Shown piece by piece: positions 41,310-49,708 of a stretch of 64,000 nt of DNA; positions within the stretch are counted from its first letter, which is position 1; the number at the start of each line of letters is the position of its first letter. The position numbers were made by a program, and so were the translations under genes. Source of the DNA: a virus (Duplodnaviria; Caudoviricetes); IMG/VR virus record IMGVR_UViG_3300005937_000004, positions 1 to 64,000 of that record; one strand, written 5' to 3'. Under the pieces are notes generated by a model. It was not told where the DNA came from. It searched no databases and was given only the letters and a program-made list of their open reading frames with translations.

Positions 41310-41445
41310 GGGCGGGGGAGGGACTCGAACCCTCAATCTCTACGATCCTTGATAGTCTGCCTTATTACTTCGGCAGCTGCCCTCATTTAAAGGGCTAGAA
41401 TCAAGTATCAGGACCGCCGCGTTAACCTATTCCGCCATCCCCGCC
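41310..41445 (-). tRNA. tRNA-Leu(UAA)-like element with a 59-nt insert in the anticodon loop
   Basis: Acceptor GGCGGGG/CCCCGCC; Leu-type D arm GGCGGAATAGGTTAACGC; stem GCGGT/ATCGT; T arm GAGGG-TTCGAGT-CCCTC; insert 41351-41409. Confidence 0.65.
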
Positions 41446-42645: not shown

Positions 42646-43494
42646 TTATTGTTTCTGCATCATTTCGGCTTTCATAATGTCGAATGCCGAAACTTCGACT
42701 CCGTTCACTATGCAACCGTTGTCGTCACAGCAACCCATGTTGTAACAAGTGAACCACAGGAAGTGTATCTGGCAGCGATACCCATCGGGACAACAGATTG
42801 GTCGTGTCCAATACCATCCGCATTCAGACCCGCCGTAATACCACACAGGAGCGCAATAATGTGTTCCTGGCGCACACTCGATTGGCGTAGGAGATGGCGG
42901 CAATGGTGTTGGCGTGGGTGATGGCGTTGGCGTAGGGGTAGGGTACGGTGTAGGCCGTGGCACCGGCGTCGGTGATGCCGAGCAAGCTGGATGCGTAATG
43001 CGGTCGCGTGTTCTTACCGTATATTGTTGCCCAAGGCAGAACGTCGCACCCGCCCAGACTGCTTGCCAATCCGGACCAATGTGCGGGATGCCGTCGGCAG
43101 CCGCTATCCAATAGGTGTCAGTTGGGAATGTATGTGGCAGACCGTCGCACACGACGTTATCGAAGCGACGAACAATGTGCACCGTGTCGGTAAGACAGCC
43201 GGTGAGGTTCGTCGGAACACTCATGCAACCACCAGTTTTCGGAGTGTGCCCCGGTGGACATGAGTAAACTACTGTACCAATCCCGTAGCCTTTGACCGTC
43301 AATTGTATGTCTGTATAGACGGTTGTGACAAGTGGGTTTGGCACTTCTGGTTCCATGTTCTGATATTCAGTGTGCATTACCACTGTGTCCGAATCCGTCC
43401 CGTTTGGTTGGGGGTTTACCTGCGCCACTAGCGCAGCCATTACTGCGGTTAATACTGCCGCTAATATCAGCAGTAAGCTTATTGTTCTTTTCAT
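42646..43494 (-). CDS. Secreted Cys-rich protein with a Pro/Thr linker
   Basis: Signal peptide, (PT)n linker, Cys-rich domains on both sides; GAAAGGAAA RBS. Confidence 0.7.
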   Translation of the reverse strand: MKRTISLLLILAAVLTAVMAALVAQVNPQPNGTDSDTVVMHTEYQNMEPEVPNPLVTTVYTDIQLTVKGYGIGTVVYSCPPGHTPKTGGCMSVPTNLTGCLTDTVHIVRRFDNVVCDGLPHTFPTDTYWIAAADGIPHIGPDWQAVWAGATFCLGQQYTVRTRDRITHPACSASPTPVPRPTPYPTPTPTPSPTPTPLPPSPTPIECAPGTHYCAPVWYYGGSECGWYWTRPICCPDGYRCQIHFLWFTCYNMGCCDDNGCIVNGVEVSAFDIMKAEMMQKQ

Positions 43495-43525
43495 GTTTCC
43501 TTTCTGTTTATTTTTTGTGTTGACT

Positions 43526-43599
43526 GGGCAGGGGAAGGAATCGAACCTTCAAAGAGAATCCCGCAAAGACTCTTGCCTTAGCCATTCAGCCACCCTGCC
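43526..43599 (-). tRNA. Atypical tRNA (loop TT-TGC-GG, 6-bp anticodon stem, no G3:U70)
   Basis: GGCAGGG/CCCTGCC; D arm GCTGAATGGCTAAGGC; AGAGTC/GATTCT; T arm GAAGG-TTCGATT-CCTTC; no CCA. Confidence 0.7.
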
Positions 43600-43608
43600 A
43601 GGTTAAGG

Positions 43609-44160
43609 TTAGATCATTGTTGTCGCATTCAGGAGGGACAGACGACCATCTAGTTCGCCCAAGATCTTTTCGATCTCTTCGCGCTCAGACGCCAATTCCA
43701 GTTCGTTGATGTTCACAACGATTTCTTTGGCCTGGTTATCGCTATTCTGGACCGCAGCGGCAGCAGCAGTGACATTGAAGCCCTGCTGTTGCGCTAGACG
43801 CCTGGTGCCCTGGATCTTTTCCCACATCCGACCGAGCTCAACCTGATTGAGTGGCGCGACTTCCCTGCGCCAGATCAACCATTCGAACACGCTCATCTCT
43901 CTTTCGCCCATCTTGAGCCTGGTAGCCAGGTTAGCCTGTTGGATCGCCAGCCTTAAGTCTACAATGCGATTGCGCAGGTCCGCGATCGATTGGCGTTCGC
44001 GCTTGATGTATTCCACGCTACCGCCGTCTTTCTCCATCGGATCACGCAACCTGGAGTCTCGGGAGAGATACTCCATGAGCTGCGCTTGTTTGGTGTCTGT
44101 GCGTTTGCCGATTGTCTTAATCTCGGCCAACGCCTCAGTGATAGTAATATCGAACTTCAT
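43609..44160 (-). CDS. DIP1984/DUF6847-like coiled-coil protein
   Basis: ITITEALAEIKTI..R, RDP, DLRNRIV.LR.AIQQAN, MSVFEWL.WRRE, LDGRLSLLNATT pattern. Confidence 0.6.
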   Translation of the reverse strand: MKFDITITEALAEIKTIGKRTDTKQAQLMEYLSRDSRLRDPMEKDGGSVEYIKRERQSIADLRNRIVDLRLAIQQANLATRLKMGEREMSVFEWLIWRREVAPLNQVELGRMWEKIQGTRRLAQQQGFNVTAAAAAVQNSDNQAKEIVVNINELELASEREEIEKILGELDGRLSLLNATTMI

Positions 44161-44199
44161 TTTTATGTTTCCTTTCAGGTTTGTTGTTTGGGTTGTGTA

Positions 44200-44480
44200 A
44201 TGGGGGGGGTTGCCTCCGGATAGCAGCCGTGAACCCAGAAAAGCGCCACACGCGGCGTTTCCCGCTCCTCTCAGAGTCGGGCAGGTTTTACCACGGATTT
44301 TGACCAGCTTTAATCTTTCAACCCTCAGCGTTTAGAACCTAAACTTTCAGTTTTAAGCTTTCAGCTTTGAGTTGGTGCGGGAATCGAACCCGCGAATCCA
44401 TTTTTGCACAATGGTCAAGATTGTGATTCTTGAATTGTAGTCGTGTGTTTTATCTCCGTTTCGCTAATGAAGGCAAACTG
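44200..44480 (-). ncRNA. Predicted structured ncRNA: tRNA-like domain + ten 7-nt repeats + multi-stem domain
   Basis: Anticodon-like hairpin 44415-44433; hairpin 44398-44414; perfect T arm GCGGG-TTCGATT-CCCGC 44377-44393; heptamer array 44300-44370; CCGTG/CACGG-closed domain 44227-44296; no ORF. Confidence 0.65.
44300..44370 (-). repeat. Heptamer tandem array (consensus TRAAAGY)
   Basis: TCAAAGC TGAAAGC TTAAAAC TGAAAGT TTAGGTT CTAAACG (C) TGAGGGT TGAAAGA TTAAAGC TGGTCAA. Confidence 0.75.
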
Positions 44481-44493
44481 TTAAAATTGTAAA

Positions 44494-44566
44494 AGGCGAG
44501 GAATCGGGTTCGAACCGAGCTCTACCGGAATTATCCGATTGTTTTGCCGTACTAAACTACCCCGCC
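44494..44566 (-). tRNA. tRNA-like element with a collapsed anticodon loop
   Basis: GGCGGGG/CCTCGCC; D arm GTTT/AAAC; ATCGGA-TAAT-TCCGGT; T loop TTCGAAC with an imperfect stem. Confidence 0.6.
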
Positions 44567-44988: not shown

Positions 44989-45134
44989 GTTTCCTTTCGT
45001 TGTTGTTAGTGTTTTCTGCTTCTTGATCCCAGATATACACCGAGTAAAAACCATACCGGTGTTAGAAGGGACCAGACCAACACAATGGCTGTTTGCCATT
45101 TGTTCATTCCGAGGGGTTCCTTTCTTGTTTGTTG

Positions 45135-45976
45135 TTACCTTGCCTGCTGTACCGAGCTTGAACGTGCCGCGACCTGTCATATCTCGCCTGTTCCTTCCTT
45201 ATCCCGCCTGCCAGTCCTGAGCGAACGTTACCCCGCACTAACCATCTTACGGGACCCCGACTCGCCTGCCACGCCGTAGACCGACAGATCGCCCAAGACG
45301 ATCTCCACCCGGACGGGCCTGCCGTACCAGTTCTTTTCACCTACAGAGCGATCAGCTCCGCTTACGCCCTGCCTGCCATGCCAGTCCCCTGTTTGGTCAT
45401 TCTCCGCTATCTCAATACCGGACTGACCTGTACCCGCCTCTCCTGCATTTCCGGACCGAAGACTCCCGTGGCTACCGAGTCCCGCTTTACTGTCCGGACC
45501 TCACTGGAACACTCTACTGGTTCCGTACCGAGCCGCGCCTGCCCAACCAATCAAGGACTCTATAGATCCAACTCCAACGAACTGGACCCCATCAATCCCT
45601 GCCTGCTAAATCTATCCTTGCCATTCTAAATCAGCCCATGACGGCCCCAGGTCATAGCTACCCTCATCTTGCCTGCAGTTCCTATCTCTACCGATAGAAG
45701 ACTTTCCGAAGCCAATCCGTCGTTGCCAAACCCAACCTGCGCGATCGGGCCTGCCCCGCCATACACACATCCGACTGTACCGGGACGTATCTTGCCTGCC
45801 ATACCATTCCCCTGCTACTACGAAGCTTTTCACAACTATCTGGACCTGATCTTTCCATGCCTGCCGTGGCTTAGCTTGGTCATCCCCAATCTATCTAACC
45901 ATTCTCTTCTACGCCTGCCGTGCCTACTGATTCCTTGCTGCTGCCCTTCACAACCCGCTTAACCTTCCCCGCCTGC
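45135..45976 (-). repeat. VIPR-like guide array, sub-array C (about 13-14 units)
   Basis: GCCTGC (+ strand) at 45142, 45206, 45264, 45317, 45371, ~45441, 45537, 45601, 45671, 45749, 45794, 45859, 45913, 45971; 5-nt NN+triplet periodicity between them. Confidence 0.8.
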
Positions 45977-46000
45977 GGAATTGACATTGGAAATAGATGT

Positions 46001-46225
46001 GTGCCCGGTAAACTTGGAAGTCCATCTCCAATCGAGACGATCTGGCTCTTAGAACAGTTCGAAAAACTTCACAACGAGCATCTATTGATCTTGAGAAAGA
46101 TCGATGAAATCCAAACGACAATTAATCCAGCTTTAGAAAAGCAGGTGCGTTTGGCATTGACACTCGCCACAAAGGTTGACCAAAAAGTTCCAGACATAAA
46201 TGTCCCACCATCAACCAAACCGTAA
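46001..46225 (+). CDS. Small coiled-coil protein inside the array
   Basis: GTG 46001 is in frame with ORF 45920-46225 and 14 nt after TTGACA (45981). Confidence 0.6.
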   Translation: MPGKLGSPSPIETIWLLEQFEKLHNEHLLILRKIDEIQTTINPALEKQVRLALTLATKVDQKVPDINVPPSTKP

Positions 46226-46237
46226 GGATAAAAAACC

Positions 46238-46483
46238 ATGGCAATGACACAAGCAGAAGCTACCGCAGCGCTGACCAAAACCAACGAAACGCTGGTCAAG
46301 ATCAGCAATGAAACCGACGCGCTCCTTCGTGAGATCGAAGCTTTGAAGAAAGCCTTAGCCGACGCTGGCGGACCGGGTGGAACGATCACGCCAGAATTGG
46401 AAGCTGCCGTCAACGCAGTTGGAACAAGGGCGGAAGCCATTGACCAGCTGGTCGAGGATGTGCCTCAGCCAGAGGGCAAATAA
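46238..46483 (+). CDS. Small acidic Ala-rich coiled-coil protein
   Basis: 81 aa, natural composition, follows the previous ORF. Confidence 0.7.
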   Translation: MAMTQAEATAALTKTNETLVKISNETDALLREIEALKKALADAGGPGGTITPELEAAVNAVGTRAEAIDQLVEDVPQPEGK

Positions 46484-46547
46484 TTTTATTTGACTCGCTG
46501 TCGGAATAGGAATAGAAATTCTGGCAAGGTTAAGGCATTAAGATCGT

Positions 46548-46589
46548 GTGGGGCGGGCAGCCGTAAAAAGCGCCGCCCCGCCACTTTTT
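46548..46589 (+). terminator. Probable intrinsic terminator of the plus-strand cassette
   Basis: GC-rich imperfect hairpin GTGGGGCGG...CCGCCCCGCCAC followed by TTTTT. Confidence 0.55.
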
Positions 46590-47500
46590 AACGAACCGGG
46601 CTGGAGATACCTGGTCGCTCCAATTCAAACCCCGCCTGCGCTATCATTCCATACCCAAACGGGATCGATCATGCGATCCCAATCTTGCCTATTCCCGCCT
46701 GCCTGATCAAACCAAGTCAAGCCTGACCCGCTCCATAGCTCTACTGTCTGCGCCACCCGTCCCAAAACCGTCCATGCCTGCCGTGCCTTTAGGTGCCTGA
46801 GCGAATCAATACTTCAAGCCCTTGCCTCGCCTGCCGATCCTTGCCGACGCAAGATCATTCCTGGGCTCTACAGTTCATGACTTGTTTCTTCCCGCCTGCT
46901 GTTCCCAGCCCGATCCGGACTGAGCTCTCCACAGTAATCCCATACAATTCATACCTGCCGTGCTTATTCCCATTTCTCCCCAGTTGACTGCTCTATAGCA
47001 TTCCTCGCCTGCCGTTCCGAAGCTTCCTAGATCCACCATACCTCGATCCGTCCATAGACCGATCGAGCACACCAACCAGCTCCTCGCCTGCCCTGCCATC
47101 CCCGAGCTCAGTTCGACCTCATCGTGACAGTCCAGCTTCTCCGTGCCTTGACCCTCGCCCCCCAACGTTACGGACCGAACTCACCACGCCTGCGCATCCG
47201 AGCCAACACCGCTTGACCCAACTGGACCGGTTCCCAGCCCATTAGTCTAAGCCCAACCTCGCCTGCCCCACTGCGTTTTTCCGAACCAACCCGGACCTGA
47301 CCCAAAAGGATCAAATCCCTCTGCCCATACCATGCCTGCGATGCCCCATCTTGGTTCACCAAATCGGGGTGGAACAGTCCAGATAACGCCTGCCACAGAA
47401 TATCTATCCCGCGCAACCCAGGTCTCATCTATTCGTGATACCAGCTCTCCAGGCCTGCCTTGCCATGACGCAGCCCGGCTACTCAAGCTGCATCCAAAAT
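46590..47500 (-). repeat. VIPR-like guide array, sub-array B (about 13 units)
   Basis: GCCTGC at 46634, 46697, 46776, 46829, 46894, 46953 (variant), 47007, 47086, 47188, 47261, 47334, 47388, 47453. Confidence 0.8.
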
Positions 47501-47571
47501 TATTTCTGCTGCGATTTATGGGCATGGCAGCAATAAACAACCCACAAACCACGGAAAAACAGAGTGCCCCA

Positions 47572-47691
47572 ATGACAGGTGGTGGCAATCCTGTTGTTCA
47601 TCCTAATGATCCGAGTATTACTCCGGAGGAAAGAGAACGGCGGGAGCGTGAGGAACGTGAACGCCAGCGAAAACAGAAGCAGTCGAAATAA
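47572..47691 (+). CDS. Very small charged protein
   Basis: MTGGGNPVVHPNDPSITPEERERREREERERQRKQKQSK; start uncertain. Confidence 0.4.
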   Translation: MTGGGNPVVHPNDPSITPEERERREREERERQRKQKQSK

Positions 47692-47754
47692 CTGCATCGC
47701 TTGTGATGGTTCAAAGCCTCACAAGCGAACATATTGACACCTGGAGGATTTAGT

Positions 47755-48090
47755 ATGCCTACAGCACACAAGGAAACCAAACACACGGTCGCTGGTCCGG
47801 ACCCAGTTCCGGAATACCGACATGAAGCGGAAAGAAAAGCCCGTGAAGAAGCAGAAGAAGCAAGCGAAAAAGCCAAAAAAGAAGGTCCACCAAAGCCTCA
47901 AGCGCAAATCGACGCGGAGCTCGCAGAAAAAGGTGGCGACGTCCCAGAAGAAAGGCAAGGTGTCCCAACCGAAGCCAGACGCTGGACAGCCGTGGAACGA
48001 GAACGCGAGGAGCGCGCTGATTACGAAAAGTTTAAAGCGGAGTACGCTGCTGAGTGGAACAAGCGACACGCCGCCAAAGCTTCCAAGTGA
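47755..48090 (+). CDS. Small charged protein inside the array
   Basis: ATG 47755 with a GGAGG RBS, 15 nt after TTGACA (47734). Confidence 0.65.
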   Translation: MPTAHKETKHTVAGPDPVPEYRHEAERKAREEAEEASEKAKKEGPPKPQAQIDAELAEKGGDVPEERQGVPTEARRWTAVEREREERADYEKFKAEYAAEWNKRHAAKASK

Positions 48091-48100
48091 GGATGGGGGT

Positions 48101-48134
48101 GGAGAGCGTCCCTTTGTATAGAAGGACGCCCTCC
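48101..48134. terminator. Hairpin between the converging plus ORF and minus array A
   Basis: GGAGAGCGTCC-12 nt-GGACGCCCTCC, 10 of 11 bp paired. Confidence 0.45.
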
Positions 48135-48139
48135 GTTTA

Positions 48140-48343
48140 GCGTGTCATGGCATGCCGTTTCTTGCCCCGGTAGCCCCGGTGCAACTCGGCTCGCCTGCCG
48201 GACCTTGCCGACCCGTGGTGTACCATGGTGGACCAAGTTCCACCCCATCTATATCGACAAATCCATGCCTGCCCCGCTGTAGCAGGTCCCAGGGTACCGT
48301 GAACCGATAACCCTCATTTCGCCACGCCTGCCGAACTCTGCCG
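48140..48343 (-). repeat. VIPR-like guide array, sub-array A (3 units), directly after the partner gene stop
   Basis: GCCTGCC at 48193, 48267, 48326; spacings 74 and 59 (5n+4). Confidence 0.8.
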
Positions 48344-48811
48344 TTAGTTGTCGGTTAGCACTAATTTGAGTTCTTTCTGGAATTTCTTAGAAGCAGCAAA
48401 GACCTCGGATAATTCACCGAGATTTTTATATTTCTTTTCAAATTCCAAAAGTTCTGCCCTTGCATCAGCCAGGAGTTGCATGCGCAAAGATTTGTTGCTC
48501 ATCACGTCTACCATCGCCCTGTAGCCGCCACCGGCAGTGCGGTCTGGCCTTAAGGAGGTGAAAACGCGAATTGCTCTGCGGTCTCCATTCATCCGGACGT
48601 ATTTAACAACGCACCGAACGAGATGGCCTGCTTGGATTAAGCGGTATTCAGCTGCCGCCTCTGAATCATCCCACTCAAAGTATTTGTGTAGGATGCTACT
48701 CTTTGGTCGAGCTGCTTGGACCACTGCCTCCGCTCGGAGGATTCCCTCCGGGTCCTGATCCCTGATCCGGTTGAGTTCCCGGATCACCATCGGATTGCTT
48801 ATGTCGTACAT
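48344..48811 (-). CDS. Conserved partner protein of the RAMP-like gene
   Basis: LHKYFEWDDSEAAAEYRLIQA...ARAELLEFEKKY; start re-called at MYDISNP. Confidence 0.75.
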   Translation of the reverse strand: MYDISNPMVIRELNRIRDQDPEGILRAEAVVQAARPKSSILHKYFEWDDSEAAAEYRLIQAGHLVRCVVKYVRMNGDRRAIRVFTSLRPDRTAGGGYRAMVDVMSNKSLRMQLLADARAELLEFEKKYKNLGELSEVFAASKKFQKELKLVLTDN

Positions 48812-49019
48812 CGGCTTTTTTCCTCTCCCACATACCGACTTTCGCTCCCTTTTTCTGTGAGATCTCATTGGCTATATCACGAACATTGTCCATGATTCTG
48901 GCTGCAACACTGATCTCTTCAGGCGAAGGGTTCTTGCTATAGACCCTGGCCTCCACCCTGCCGGAGACCTGGCCTTCATCAGCCGGTTGTTCTCGGATTT
49001 GAATGAGGATGTCGATCAC
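48696..49019 (-). CDS. Possible small protein between the RAMP-like gene and its partner
   Basis: GTG overlaps the RAMP-gene stop (GTGA); the 3' end overlaps the partner gene. Confidence 0.4.
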   Translation of the reverse strand: MIDILIQIREQPADEGQVSGRVEARVYSKNPSPEEISVAARIMDNVRDIANEISQKKGAKVGMWERKKADVRHKQSDGDPGTQPDQGSGPGGNPPSGGSGPSSSTKE

Positions 49020-49708
49020 TTTTGCTCGACCTCGAATAGGCCCCAGCCTTGACCGGGACTGTTTCGAGAATCGGGTCGACCTTCGCAGATTCCGACCTGT
49101 AATCCAACTCGCATCAACAGGTTGGTGACGTCTTTCAACTGGAACTGATCTGCGTCCCAGCGGATCTTGACGTTCGCTTCCCATGGCATGTACTTGGCTC
49201 GAATAGCCACATACGGTTGCCCTGTTTCAACCCGAGCGATCGACTTGAGAAGTTCTGGTTTCCCATGAAGCCGGATCAATGGGATGGTCGGTTCTGTCCC
49301 GTCCCAGCCGTCCTGCACGACGAAGATGGAAAGTTTGGCTAACGTCATCTTGAAGTTGACCAACCTGCAGGCCGAAATGCAGGCATTGCGAATAGAGCCA
49401 GCATGAAATCCATCCCAACCCTGCGGTGAAATGTAACGAGCCTGTATGAAAGACTCGTTAATGTCCTGCGGTTCTCGCTTCTTCTTTGAAGACGCCGATT
49501 TTCCTTCCATCTGCTTGGCTAACATTTCGTCAGCCACCTTTTTGCTGAACCGGTGTATTACCAGAGGTACACCAGATAGACCGCTGATCTTGAATACCGC
49601 CGTCTGGAAGTTTGGCGGTGTGATAGTGACCGTCATTCGACGTTCACCGTCCAGTGACGGCTTTTTAGTCATCCGTCGAGACTTTGCTGTTAGGGTTGAT
49701 GTTGCCAT
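49016..49708 (-). CDS. RAMP/Cas7-like protein (Vipr-like effector)
   Basis: FKISGLSGVPLVIHRF, GWDGFHAGSIRNACISAC and a C-terminal Gly-rich loop VGLQVGICEGRP...GQGWGLFEV; adjacent pentamer arrays; no cas1/cas2 or CRISPR repeats. Confidence 0.75.
   Translation of the reverse strand: MATSTLTAKSRRMTKKPSLDGERRMTVTITPPNFQTAVFKISGLSGVPLVIHRFSKKVADEMLAKQMEGKSASSKKKREPQDINESFIQARYISPQGWDGFHAGSIRNACISACRLVNFKMTLAKLSIFVVQDGWDGTEPTIPLIRLHGKPELLKSIARVETGQPYVAIRAKYMPWEANVKIRWDADQFQLKDVTNLLMRVGLQVGICEGRPDSRNSPGQGWGLFEVEQK

What the first reader, a model, noticed from the sequence alone, without database searches (positions are those of the whole stretch)
43526..44566. Candidate undescribed RNP: DIP1984-like coiled-coil protein plus an ncRNA with a tRNA-like head and a 7-nt repeat tail
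Seen in sequence (minus strand order): tRNA-like element, then a ~280-nt ORF-free region, then the 183-aa coiled-coil gene, then another tRNA-like element. The 280-nt region has an anticodon-like hairpin (TCAAGA-ATCACAA-TCTTGA), a long variable-arm hairpin, a perfect T arm and a partial acceptor pairing (AGTT/AACT). It continues with ten heptamers of consensus TRAAAGY and a multi-stem domain closed by CCGTG/CACGG. Established knowledge: tRNA-like modules are cut by RNase P and RNase Z and are used in tmRNA and bacterial Y RNAs. Inference: the flanking tRNA-like elements release the ncRNA, and the coiled-coil protein oligomerises on the heptamers, one subunit per repeat, with variable positions possibly carrying information as in the neighbouring pentamer system. 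I know of no described function for this pairing.
Basis: partly seen in the sequence, partly recalled or inferred. Interest (0 to 1): 0.85.

Follow-up and report, generated by a model that had tools for sequence, protein, structure and literature searches.

The report
Phage heptad-rail RNA with partner protein
The ORF-free stretch is a real, conserved 267-base folded RNA with a tRNA-shaped branch and eleven evenly spaced 7-base units; in every relative checked, including a remote one in model phage T5, it lies beside the same small helical protein gene, so the two probably form an undescribed protein-RNA particle.

Summary
Window 44210-44476 (minus strand) is a 267-nt structured RNA. It has:
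- a closing helix P1;
- an invariant GCGAA motif;
- a degenerate tRNA-like branch;
- a 77-nt rail of eleven heptads, consensus AAAG-N-U-N;
- a junction domain (helices P2/P2b closing hairpins P3 and P4).

On 34 homologues, 91.8% of cells pair, against 63% after shuffling. 30 of 35 pairs show double changes.

A covariance model built from 32 copies found the RNA in every held-out locus of the 183-aa gene's family. In all, 69 distinct loci from IMG/VR viral contigs, GTDB genomes and assemblies carry it, plus the window. It normally starts just after the stop codon on the same strand. Only the window and its closest relative carry it upstream. A remote copy follows gene T5.085 in phage T5.

The protein has the DIP1984 (3KDQ) fold and only weak sequence signal for DUF6847. 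Rfam holds no matching family.

The branch slot varies: a true tRNA in 10 of 34, a capped permuted tRNA mimic ordered as in YrlA Y RNAs in 5-6, and a remnant here.

Its release-by-flanking-tRNA model and its AGTT/AACT acceptor pairing are not supported.

This scan has met the same gene-plus-RNA class before on other genomes.

The parts
44210..44476 (-). Whole structured RNA, from P1 5' strand to P1 3' strand (267 nt)
   Evidence: nhmmer with the family profile gives one hit in the 78.9-kb genome, E 7e-48. CM R1 scores 132.7 bits on its 3' half. P1 pairs 12 of 12 scored positions.
44463..44476 (-). P1 5' strand (TTGCCTTCATTAGC); the invariant GCGAA motif runs from its end, at 44460-44464
   Evidence: Helix 1: 13 pairs, 9 with double changes, 90.7% paired. 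G16 C17 G18 A19 A20 are invariant in 34 sequences.
44377..44433 (-). Degenerate tRNA-like branch: anticodon-arm-like hairpin (44415-44433), V-like hairpin (44398-44414), T arm (44377-44393). No D arm and no acceptor stem.
   Evidence: Fold. The T arm matches the Rfam tmRNA/tRNA T-arm consensus only. ARAGORN makes no call. The same slot holds real tRNAs in 10 of 34 relatives.
44297..44373 (-). Heptad rail: 77 nt, eleven 7-nt units, family consensus AAAG-N-U-N
   Evidence: Lag-7 autocorrelation z 4.7. Rail length is 77-81 nt in 29 of 34 homologues. The register is conserved in alignments A3 and A4.
44227..44296 (-). Junction domain: P2 (44292-44296 with 44227-44231), P2b (44283-44286 with 44233-44236), hairpin P3 with a GAGA loop (44261-44281), hairpin P4 (44244-44257)
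   Evidence: Helices 2-5 are 87.5-100% paired, and every pair but one invariant C-G shows double changes. RNAalifold result.
44210..44224 (-). P1 3' strand (GCTA-TCC-GGAGGCAA), preceded by the conserved GGCUGC
43609..44160 (-). 183-aa helical protein gene: DIP1984/3KDQ-like fold, PHROG 1491
   Evidence: PHROG 1491, E 1.2e-14. AF2 pLDDT 91. 3kdq is the top hit in Foldseek (E 8e-3) and VIA (Z 10.9). At least 785 homologues.
44494..44566 (-). Flanking tRNA-like element with a 6-nt anticodon loop, just upstream of the RNA; specific to this phage
   Evidence: ARAGORN 'tRNA-???'. Rfam tRNA 20.9 bits, below cut-off. Fold.
43526..43599 (-). tRNA-like element with a 9-nt anticodon loop, 9 nt after the gene's stop codon
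   Evidence: Rfam tRNA 46.6 bits with a 5-nt insert in the anticodon loop. Fold.

Best explanation
The 267-nt element is a trans-acting structured RNA. It belongs to a large RNA family that Rfam does not hold, and that family is obligatorily co-inherited with a small DIP1984-fold helical protein in phages and prophages.

Shown:
- The RNA fold: P1 closing the whole molecule, a variable slot holding a tRNA or tRNA mimic, an 11-heptad single-stranded rail of fixed length, and a junction domain (P2/P2b closing hairpins P3 and P4).
- Its strand: many G-U pairs.
- Its universal linkage to the gene.

Inferred:
- The protein and RNA form a ribonucleoprotein.
- Protein copies load onto the AAAG-N-U-N rail at a defined stoichiometry, as TRAP does on its triplet repeats.
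- P1 and the junction domain fix the ends of the rail.
- The tRNA-shaped branch gives the particle access to tRNA-recognising machinery (RNase P, CCA-adding and modification enzymes, or tRNA-directed defence nucleases), as the tRNA-like domain of YrlA Y RNAs does for Ro60 particles.

In this phage the branch has decayed to a T arm plus two hairpins, and the RNA has moved upstream of its gene.
For: Structure:
- 91.8% of cells paired against 63.3% shuffled and 34-46% slid.
- Covariation score 0.743 against 0.21 shuffled.
- 30 of 35 pairs have double changes.
- Frequent G-U pairs (columns 10-451 U-G in 29 of 34; columns 369-431 U-G in 22 of 34) place the fold on the gene's strand.

Linkage:
- nhmmer found the element after the stop codon in about 45 of 58 viral loci.
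- CM R1 found it in all held-out loci, on the same strand.
- 12 of 12 loci from an independent genome collection have it.
- A pattern scan for the RNA alone returned only copies next to the gene.
- No other neighbour is conserved.

Trans action: in the window and in L006 the RNA sits upstream of the gene (690 nt away in L006) yet keeps every helix.

Rail: fixed length and 7-nt period.

Protein: invariant basic residues R20, K24, R34, R70, R98, R120.

Deep conservation: T5.085 (PHROG 1491, E 9e-84) is followed by an unannotated RNA with the same P1/P2 layout (fold z -5.7; R1 21.8 bits, E 0.0017).

tRNA mimicry: capped permuted modules in V-T-acceptor-D order, as described for YrlA (PMC4201824).
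Against: - No direct evidence of transcription, RNA ends or binding.
- The protein is not basic (pI 5.6-8.9) and has no recognised RNA-binding domain.
- Gene-RNA adjacency would also be expected for a cis-acting 3' element.
- 14 of 34 copies lack any T arm, so tRNA mimicry cannot be essential to the core function.
- RNA-repair genes are not consistently present: RtcB in 3 of 42 records.
- This phage has no Ro60/TROVE.
Confidence: 0.55

Rival explanations
1. Cis-acting 3' element of the DIP1984-like mRNA. The structure ends, stabilises or autoregulates the upstream message, for example through RNase P cleavage at the tRNA followed by P1 protecting the new 3' end. It has no role as a separate RNA.
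For: In 69 of 71 copies the RNA begins within tens to hundreds of nt after the stop codon on the same strand. P4 plus a U-run resembles a terminator in the window.
Against: The window and L006 keep an intact, high-scoring RNA upstream of the gene, 690 nt and three ORFs away in L006. The element is 250-350 nt with five covarying helices and a fixed 77-nt rail, far more than a terminator or stabiliser needs. P4 is followed by conserved sequence that closes P2 and P1.
Confidence: 0.15
2. The RNA works without the protein, as a decoy or sponge for host tRNA-directed enzymes or defence nucleases, or for a universal RNA-binding protein such as S1. The neighbouring protein is merely co-expressed or acts elsewhere.
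For: tRNA or tRNA-mimic modules are frequent (20 of 34). The window's phage carries three further aberrant tRNA-like elements. The protein is not basic.
Against: Strict co-inheritance with one protein family, across hosts from Chloroflexota to Proteobacteria and out to T5, is hard to explain without a direct partnership. 14 of 34 copies lack tRNA features.
Confidence: 0.15
3. tRNA expression cassette. The conserved frame is a processing scaffold whose product is the embedded tRNA.
For: 10 of 34 copies hold tRNAs scoring 42-70 bits, with ordinary anticodon loops and varied anticodons.
Against: Most copies hold capped, truncated or no tRNA, yet keep the frame, rail and junction domain under strong covariation. 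The window's copy cannot yield a tRNA.
Confidence: 0.07
4. DNA-level site (origin, attP or packaging signal), or a type III toxin-antitoxin pair with the RNA as antitoxin.
For: Repeats next to a small protein gene in replication modules. The varied tRNA identities recall attP sites. In the window the RNA precedes the gene and contains a terminator-like hairpin, as in ToxIN.
Against: Covariation with many G-U pairs is strand-specific and spans 250 nt. No integrase is linked. The RNA follows the gene in nearly all loci. The heptads are not tandem pseudoknot repeats. The protein has no nuclease signature.
Confidence: 0.06

Closest known systems
YrlA-type bacterial Y RNA with Ro60 (Rsr) (Chen et al. 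2014, PMC4201824)
   Same: Both are ncRNAs encoded beside, and on the same strand as, a partner protein gene, in bacteria and phages. Both carry a short CGAA(G)-containing motif near the 5' end (YrlA: GNCGAAN0-1G; here an invariant GCGAA, usually followed by G). Both have an internal tRNA-like domain in V-T-capped acceptor-D order; here that is seen in L023, L029, L036, L041 and L062. In M. smegmatis YrlA this domain is cut by RNase P and receives CCA.
   Different: The partner is a 180-aa helical DIP1984-fold protein, not a TROVE ring, and this complete phage genome has no TROVE. The Rfam YrlA model scores 14.9 bits against a cut-off of 69 in the window and reaches the cut-off in none of the 40 related loci scanned. 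YrlA has no heptad rail and no P2-P4 junction domain. The tRNA-like branch here is optional.
TRAP bound to the Bacillus trp leader (own knowledge: 11 (G/U)AG triplets wrapped round an 11-subunit ring)
   Same: Both have a fixed number of short, evenly spaced single-stranded repeats, which suggests one repeat per protein subunit. The count here is also about eleven.
   Different: The period is 7 nt, not 5. The repeat is AAAG-N-U-N. The protein fold is different. The rail lies inside a closed, stand-alone RNA rather than an mRNA leader. Binding is not shown.
tmRNA with SmpB, including two-piece permuted tmRNA
   Same: Both have a T arm of tmRNA/tRNA type (the Rfam tmRNA model matches the T arm only). 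In some members a permuted tRNA-like domain would split the RNA into two paired pieces if processed. Both have a dedicated small protein gene next door.
   Different: ARAGORN finds no tmRNA. There is no tag reading frame, since the rail has stop codons in all frames. The window's copy has no acceptor stem, and the genome has no SmpB-like fold.
Orphan Rfam motif RAGATH-26 (RF03051)
   Same: A weak local resemblance over the rail and the start of P2 (ACUGAAAGU ... GGUCAAAAU).
   Different: 17.9 bits against a cut-off of 86.3, E 0.58, so not significant. The motif has 76 positions and no known function or partner.

Membership tests
Heptad-rail RNA linked to DIP1984-like genes (uncatalogued family defined here by model R1 and alignment A3) | The 3' half (rail plus P2/P2b/P3/P4) matches the family covariance model | tested here: met
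   132.7 bits, E 1.6e-30, but the window's copy was in the training set. All held-out loci score 49-134 bits.
Heptad-rail RNA linked to DIP1984-like genes (uncatalogued family defined here by model R1 and alignment A3) | Closing helix P1 with the GCGAA motif at its inner end | tested here: met
   12 of 12 scored pairs in the window. GCGAA is invariant.
Heptad-rail RNA linked to DIP1984-like genes (uncatalogued family defined here by model R1 and alignment A3) | Lies directly downstream of the partner gene | tested here: not met
   The RNA lies 49 nt upstream of the gene. Only L006 shares this arrangement. The linkage itself is kept.
DIP1984 / DUF6847 (PF20935, PDB 3KDQ) | Pfam or NCBIfam model hit above the curated cut-off | tested here: not met
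   No hit for the window's protein. 7 of 23 relatives hit PF20935 weakly, best E 0.0053.
DIP1984 / DUF6847 (PF20935, PDB 3KDQ) | Same fold as 3KDQ | tested here: met
   3kdq is the top hit in both searches: Foldseek E 8e-3, TM 0.47-0.55; VIA Z 10.9, 151 of 152 residues aligned but rmsd 8.3. ESM Atlas neighbours carry PF20935 in 16-25% of members.
YrlA Y RNA (RF02553) | Rfam covariance model at gathering score | tested here: not met
   14.9 bits against 69. No hit at gathering in the window or in the 40 related loci scanned.
YrlA Y RNA (RF02553) | Encoded next to a Ro60/TROVE gene | tested here: not met
   No TROVE in the complete 78.9-kb genome.
tRNA (RF00005), for the internal branch | Cloverleaf with acceptor and D arms | tested here: not met
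   No ARAGORN or Rfam tRNA call at 44377-44433. Only three hairpins form.
tmRNA (RF00023 and permuted models) | Full model match or an ARAGORN tmRNA call with a tag peptide | tested here: not met
   Only 17-27 nt of the T arm match. ARAGORN finds none.

The most novel reading that the evidence does not exclude
A new class of phage and bacterial ribonucleoprotein. An oligomer of the DIP1984-fold protein, about eleven copies, assembles one subunit per heptad on a fixed-length AAAG-N-U-N rail held between two helices. An exchangeable tRNA or tRNA-mimic branch plugs the particle into tRNA-processing or tRNA-targeting pathways. That would make it a functional analogue of Ro60-Y RNA built from unrelated parts, conserved from uncultured soil phages to T5.
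Probability: 0.3. Interest if true: 0.9.

Novelty: categorically new. Interest (0 to 1): 0.8.

Why it matters
Proteins with the DIP1984/DUF6847 fold are common in bacteria, plasmids and phages, and no function is known for them. A dedicated 250-350-nt structured RNA partner, absent from Rfam 15 and from the literature I could search, would give that family its first functional handle.

It would also add a new large RNA class with an unusual design: a fixed 7-nt-period rail and a swappable tRNA slot. A remote copy sits unannotated behind T5.085 in phage T5, so the hypothesis can be tested directly in a standard laboratory system.

Tried and rejected
- **Permuted or two-piece tmRNA.** Rejected: ARAGORN finds none, Rfam matches only the T arm, and there is no tag frame.
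- **Pseudoknot between the 5' GAGAGAA tract and the conserved UUCUC after P4.** Inconclusive: 63.5% paired at register 0 against 77% at register -2, and the purine/pyrimidine composition inflates the baseline.
- **Pairing of heptad 5 (AGGWUUU) with AAAAUCC before P2.** Examined by eye only. It clashes with P2 and was not pursued.
- **Named phage relatives by tblastn in GenBank phages.** None at E 1e-3. blastn of the region also found none.
- **Fused or longer forms of the protein.** None.
- **Solved-structure sequence search.** Nothing meaningful.
RtcB in only 3 of 42 phage records and not adjacent. One RNA ligase lies 3 kb away in L095.
- **Sigma-70 promoter for the RNA.** None found.
- **Exact-pattern search for the junction core.** It found only L006's contig. 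Three hits of the 5'-block pattern were coding-sequence chance matches.
- **Literature searches.** Searches for DIP1984, DUF6847, RAGATH-19/26/27, septicolysin and embedded tRNA/structured RNA/phage found no description of this RNA.

Full report
**Setting**

The window is 64 kb of a complete 78.9-kb phage genome with terminal repeats. On the minus strand the order is:
- a 135-200-aa ORF;
- a tRNA-like element (44494-44566);
- an ORF-free stretch;
- a 183-aa ORF (43609-44160);
- a second tRNA-like element (43526-43599);
- a 282-aa ORF.

Upstream, at 45134-49708, lies what earlier notes of this scan read as a VIPR guide-array system. I saw its GGCAGGC-punctuated non-coding DNA but did not study it.

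- Both flanking elements are aberrant. The upstream one has a 6-nt anticodon loop (ARAGORN 'tRNA-???'; Rfam tRNA 20.9 bits, below the cut-off of 29).
- The downstream one has a 9-nt loop (46.6 bits with a 5-nt insert).
- The heptamer tract has a highly significant 7-nt period: lag-7 identity 0.51 against 0.28, z 4.7, 0 of 2000 shuffles as high, with harmonics at lags 14 and 21.

**The protein**

- It has no Pfam or NCBIfam hit. It matches PHROG 1491 (E 1.2e-14), whose 'tail fiber' label is probably unreliable.
- It has at least 785 homologues of the same length in metagenomes and no fused forms.
- AlphaFold2 on a 23-sequence alignment gives pLDDT 91: four long helices plus a small sheet.
- The only full-length structural match is 3KDQ, the C. 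diphtheriae protein of unknown function. It is the top Foldseek hit (E 8e-3) and the top VIA hit (Z 10.9, 151 of 152 residues, rmsd 8.3).
- Seven of 23 relatives touch PF20935/DUF6847 below threshold. ESM Atlas neighbours carry it in 16-25% of members.
- 'DIP1984-like' is therefore fair at the fold level. Membership of the sequence family is not shown.
- The protein is near neutral (pI 5.6-8.9) but has invariant basic residues R20, K24, R34, R70, R98, R120.

**The RNA is a family**

I fetched 58 viral loci encoding relatives.

*First signs*
- A T-arm motif or tRNA lies 45-125 nt after the stop codon in about half of the loci, always with a different anticodon.
- blastn and nhmmer with the window's ORF-free stretch showed that the whole element, not just a tRNA, is homologous. 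In relatives it lies immediately downstream of the gene on the same strand.

*Structure on an alignment of 34 full elements (A3)*
- RNAalifold predicts a closing helix P1 (5' GCCUUCGGYAGC with 3' GCUG-UUU-GGAGGC), then P2, P2b, hairpin P3 with a GAGA/GAAA loop, and hairpin P4. 30 of 36 pairs are compensatory.
- Counting on the 35 pairs kept from that structure gives 91.8% paired cells, against 63.3% after shuffling and 34-46% with partners slid.
- The covariation score is 0.743, against 0.21 shuffled and 0.09-0.16 slid, with 0 of 500 shuffles as high on every measure.
- Many positions are predominantly G-U, so the fold belongs to the strand of the gene. This argues for RNA rather than a duplex DNA site.

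*Rfam*
- Rfam 15 finds only tRNAs, plus one tmRNA gene elsewhere in locus L054, in 40 related loci and nothing else in the window.
- Sub-threshold hits in the window are not significant: RAGATH-26 17.9 bits, YrlA 14.9 bits, tmRNA T arm only.

**Linkage is universal in my sample**

- A covariance model of the 3' half (R1, from 32 copies) found the RNA in every held-out locus, on the gene's strand.
- Those comprise the viral loci not used in training, 12 of 12 loci with downstream DNA from an independent collection of species genomes, and two further assemblies.
- The independent genome loci come from MAGs of Chloroflexota, Planctomycetota, Armatimonadota, Acidobacteriota and Alphaproteobacteria.
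- Together with the 32 training copies, that is 69 distinct loci with adequate flanking DNA, plus the window.
- In the reverse test, a degenerate pattern for the RNA's 5' block found ten true RNAs in IMG/VR, all beside the gene, and three chance hits inside coding sequence.
- No other neighbour is conserved. Contexts are replication, recombination or early modules: PolA, SSB-like, FtsK-like, PD-(D/E)XK, ERF/YqaJ.

**Anatomy in the window (minus strand)**

| Part | Coordinates |
|---|---|
| P1 5' strand | 44463-44476 |
| Invariant GCGAA | 44460-44464 |
| Anticodon-arm-like hairpin | 44415-44433 |
| V-like hairpin | 44398-44414 |
| T arm | 44377-44393 |
| Rail | 44297-44373 |
| P2 | 44292-44296 with 44227-44231 |
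| P2b | 44283-44286 with 44233-44236 |
| P3 | 44261-44281 |
| P4 | 44244-44257 |
| P1 3' strand | 44210-44224 |

- The genome has one copy of the RNA and one copy of the gene.

**The rail**

- Its length is 77-81 nt in 29 of 34 copies, which is eleven heptads.
- The register is conserved, with family consensus AAAG-N-U-N and position-specific features such as a YAGGWUUU fifth unit.
- It has stop codons in all frames, so it is not a tag frame.
- A fixed length and period fit a defined protein stoichiometry better than a guide code.

**The branch slot varies**

- 10 of 34 hold standard tRNAs (Arg, Gln, Ile, Ser, Lys, Val; Rfam 42-70 bits where scanned).
- 5-6 hold a circularly permuted tRNA mimic: a T arm, then a 7-bp acceptor stem capped by a loop, then a D arm. 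The fold of L062 shows a clean four-way junction.
- 3-4, including the window, keep only a T arm.
- 14 have none.
- The permuted order V-T-acceptor-D is the one described for YrlA Y RNAs. YrlA RNAs also carry a GNCGAAN0-1G motif near the 5' end, are encoded beside Ro60 on the same strand, occur in phages, and in M. smegmatis are cut by RNase P and receive CCA (PMC4201824).
- The resemblance is architectural only. This phage has no TROVE gene and the YrlA model fails.

**What is special here**

Only the window and its closest relative L006 (73% protein identity, a 79.7-kb phage) have the RNA upstream of the gene. The gap is 49 nt here; in L006 it is 690 nt and three small ORFs. The RNA is nevertheless fully intact. 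That argues against a purely cis 3'-UTR role and for a trans-acting RNA.

In relatives there are no flanking tRNA-likes, so they cannot be the general release mechanism. In this phage they may still serve as processing signals, but this is untested.

**Reach to a model phage**

Earlier notes of this scan said that T5 relatives carry the same pair, so I tested it.
- T5.085 (43505-44143, minus strand) matches PHROG 1491 at E 9e-84.
- It is followed by about 360 nt of unannotated DNA.
- That stretch folds with z -5.7 into an 18-bp closing helix, followed by GAAAG, and a P2 just before the 3' strand, with heptads between.
- R1 hits it on the right strand at 21.8 bits, E 0.0017. nhmmer alone is marginal.

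**Interpretation**

Best reading (0.55): a protein-RNA particle in which the protein loads on the rail and the branch mimics tRNA.

Rivals:
- a cis 3' element (0.15);
- a protein-independent decoy (0.15);
- a tRNA cassette (0.07);
- a DNA site or a type III toxin-antitoxin pair (0.06).

Nothing here shows transcription, binding or phenotype. A link to RNA repair is not general, with RtcB in 3 of 42 records.

I found no paper describing the RNA or a function for the protein family. This scan has reported the same class several times on other genomes.

Noticed in passing
window 45134-48340 (minus strand): About 2.5 kb of non-coding DNA in three blocks, punctuated every 60-100 nt by GGCAGGC and interrupted by plus-strand ORF cassettes. 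Earlier notes of this scan read it as VIPR guide arrays (bioRxiv 10.64898/2026.04.26.720920). The RNA-protein pair studied here occurs in many phages in other contexts, so the adjacency looks coincidental.
   Followed up: no
window 41310-41445 (minus strand): A third aberrant tRNA-like element. GGCGGGG...CCCCGCC can form an acceptor stem and there is a perfect T arm (41318-41334), but the whole is about 130 nt long with a large insert. ARAGORN does not call it.
   Followed up: partly
L093 (phage T5 AY543070, about 43142-43504, minus strand): An unannotated 360-nt intergenic stretch behind T5.085 folds with z -5.7 into the same closed, rail-bearing layout. It is a remote copy of this RNA family in a model phage.
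   Followed up: partly
L066:2479-2553 and L033:3099-3174: The tRNA modules embedded in these relatives are called 'tRNA-???' by ARAGORN with 2-base anticodons (6-nt loops), as for window 44494-44566. The Rfam tRNA model nevertheless scores the L066 module at 63.9 bits. L007, L021 and L029 have anticodon-like loops reading UUA.
   Followed up: no
L054:1-290: A phage contig carrying the pair also encodes a tmRNA (Rfam 75 bits, cut by the locus end).
   Followed up: no
L097:8540-8827: The source's gene caller places a 95-aa ORF across the RNA. Such spurious ORFs may hide this RNA family in annotated genomes.
   Followed up: no
window 42646-43494 (minus strand): A 282-aa protein with a signal-peptide-like N-terminus, a Pro/Thr-rich linker and a Cys-rich C-terminal part. 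It has no Pfam or PHROG hit.
   Followed up: no
L006:3050-3205: In the closest relative too, the gene is followed by a short tRNA-like stretch (anticodon-like loop CUGUAAA) instead of the full RNA. This mirrors window 43526-43599 and suggests one rearrangement in their common ancestor.
   Followed up: no
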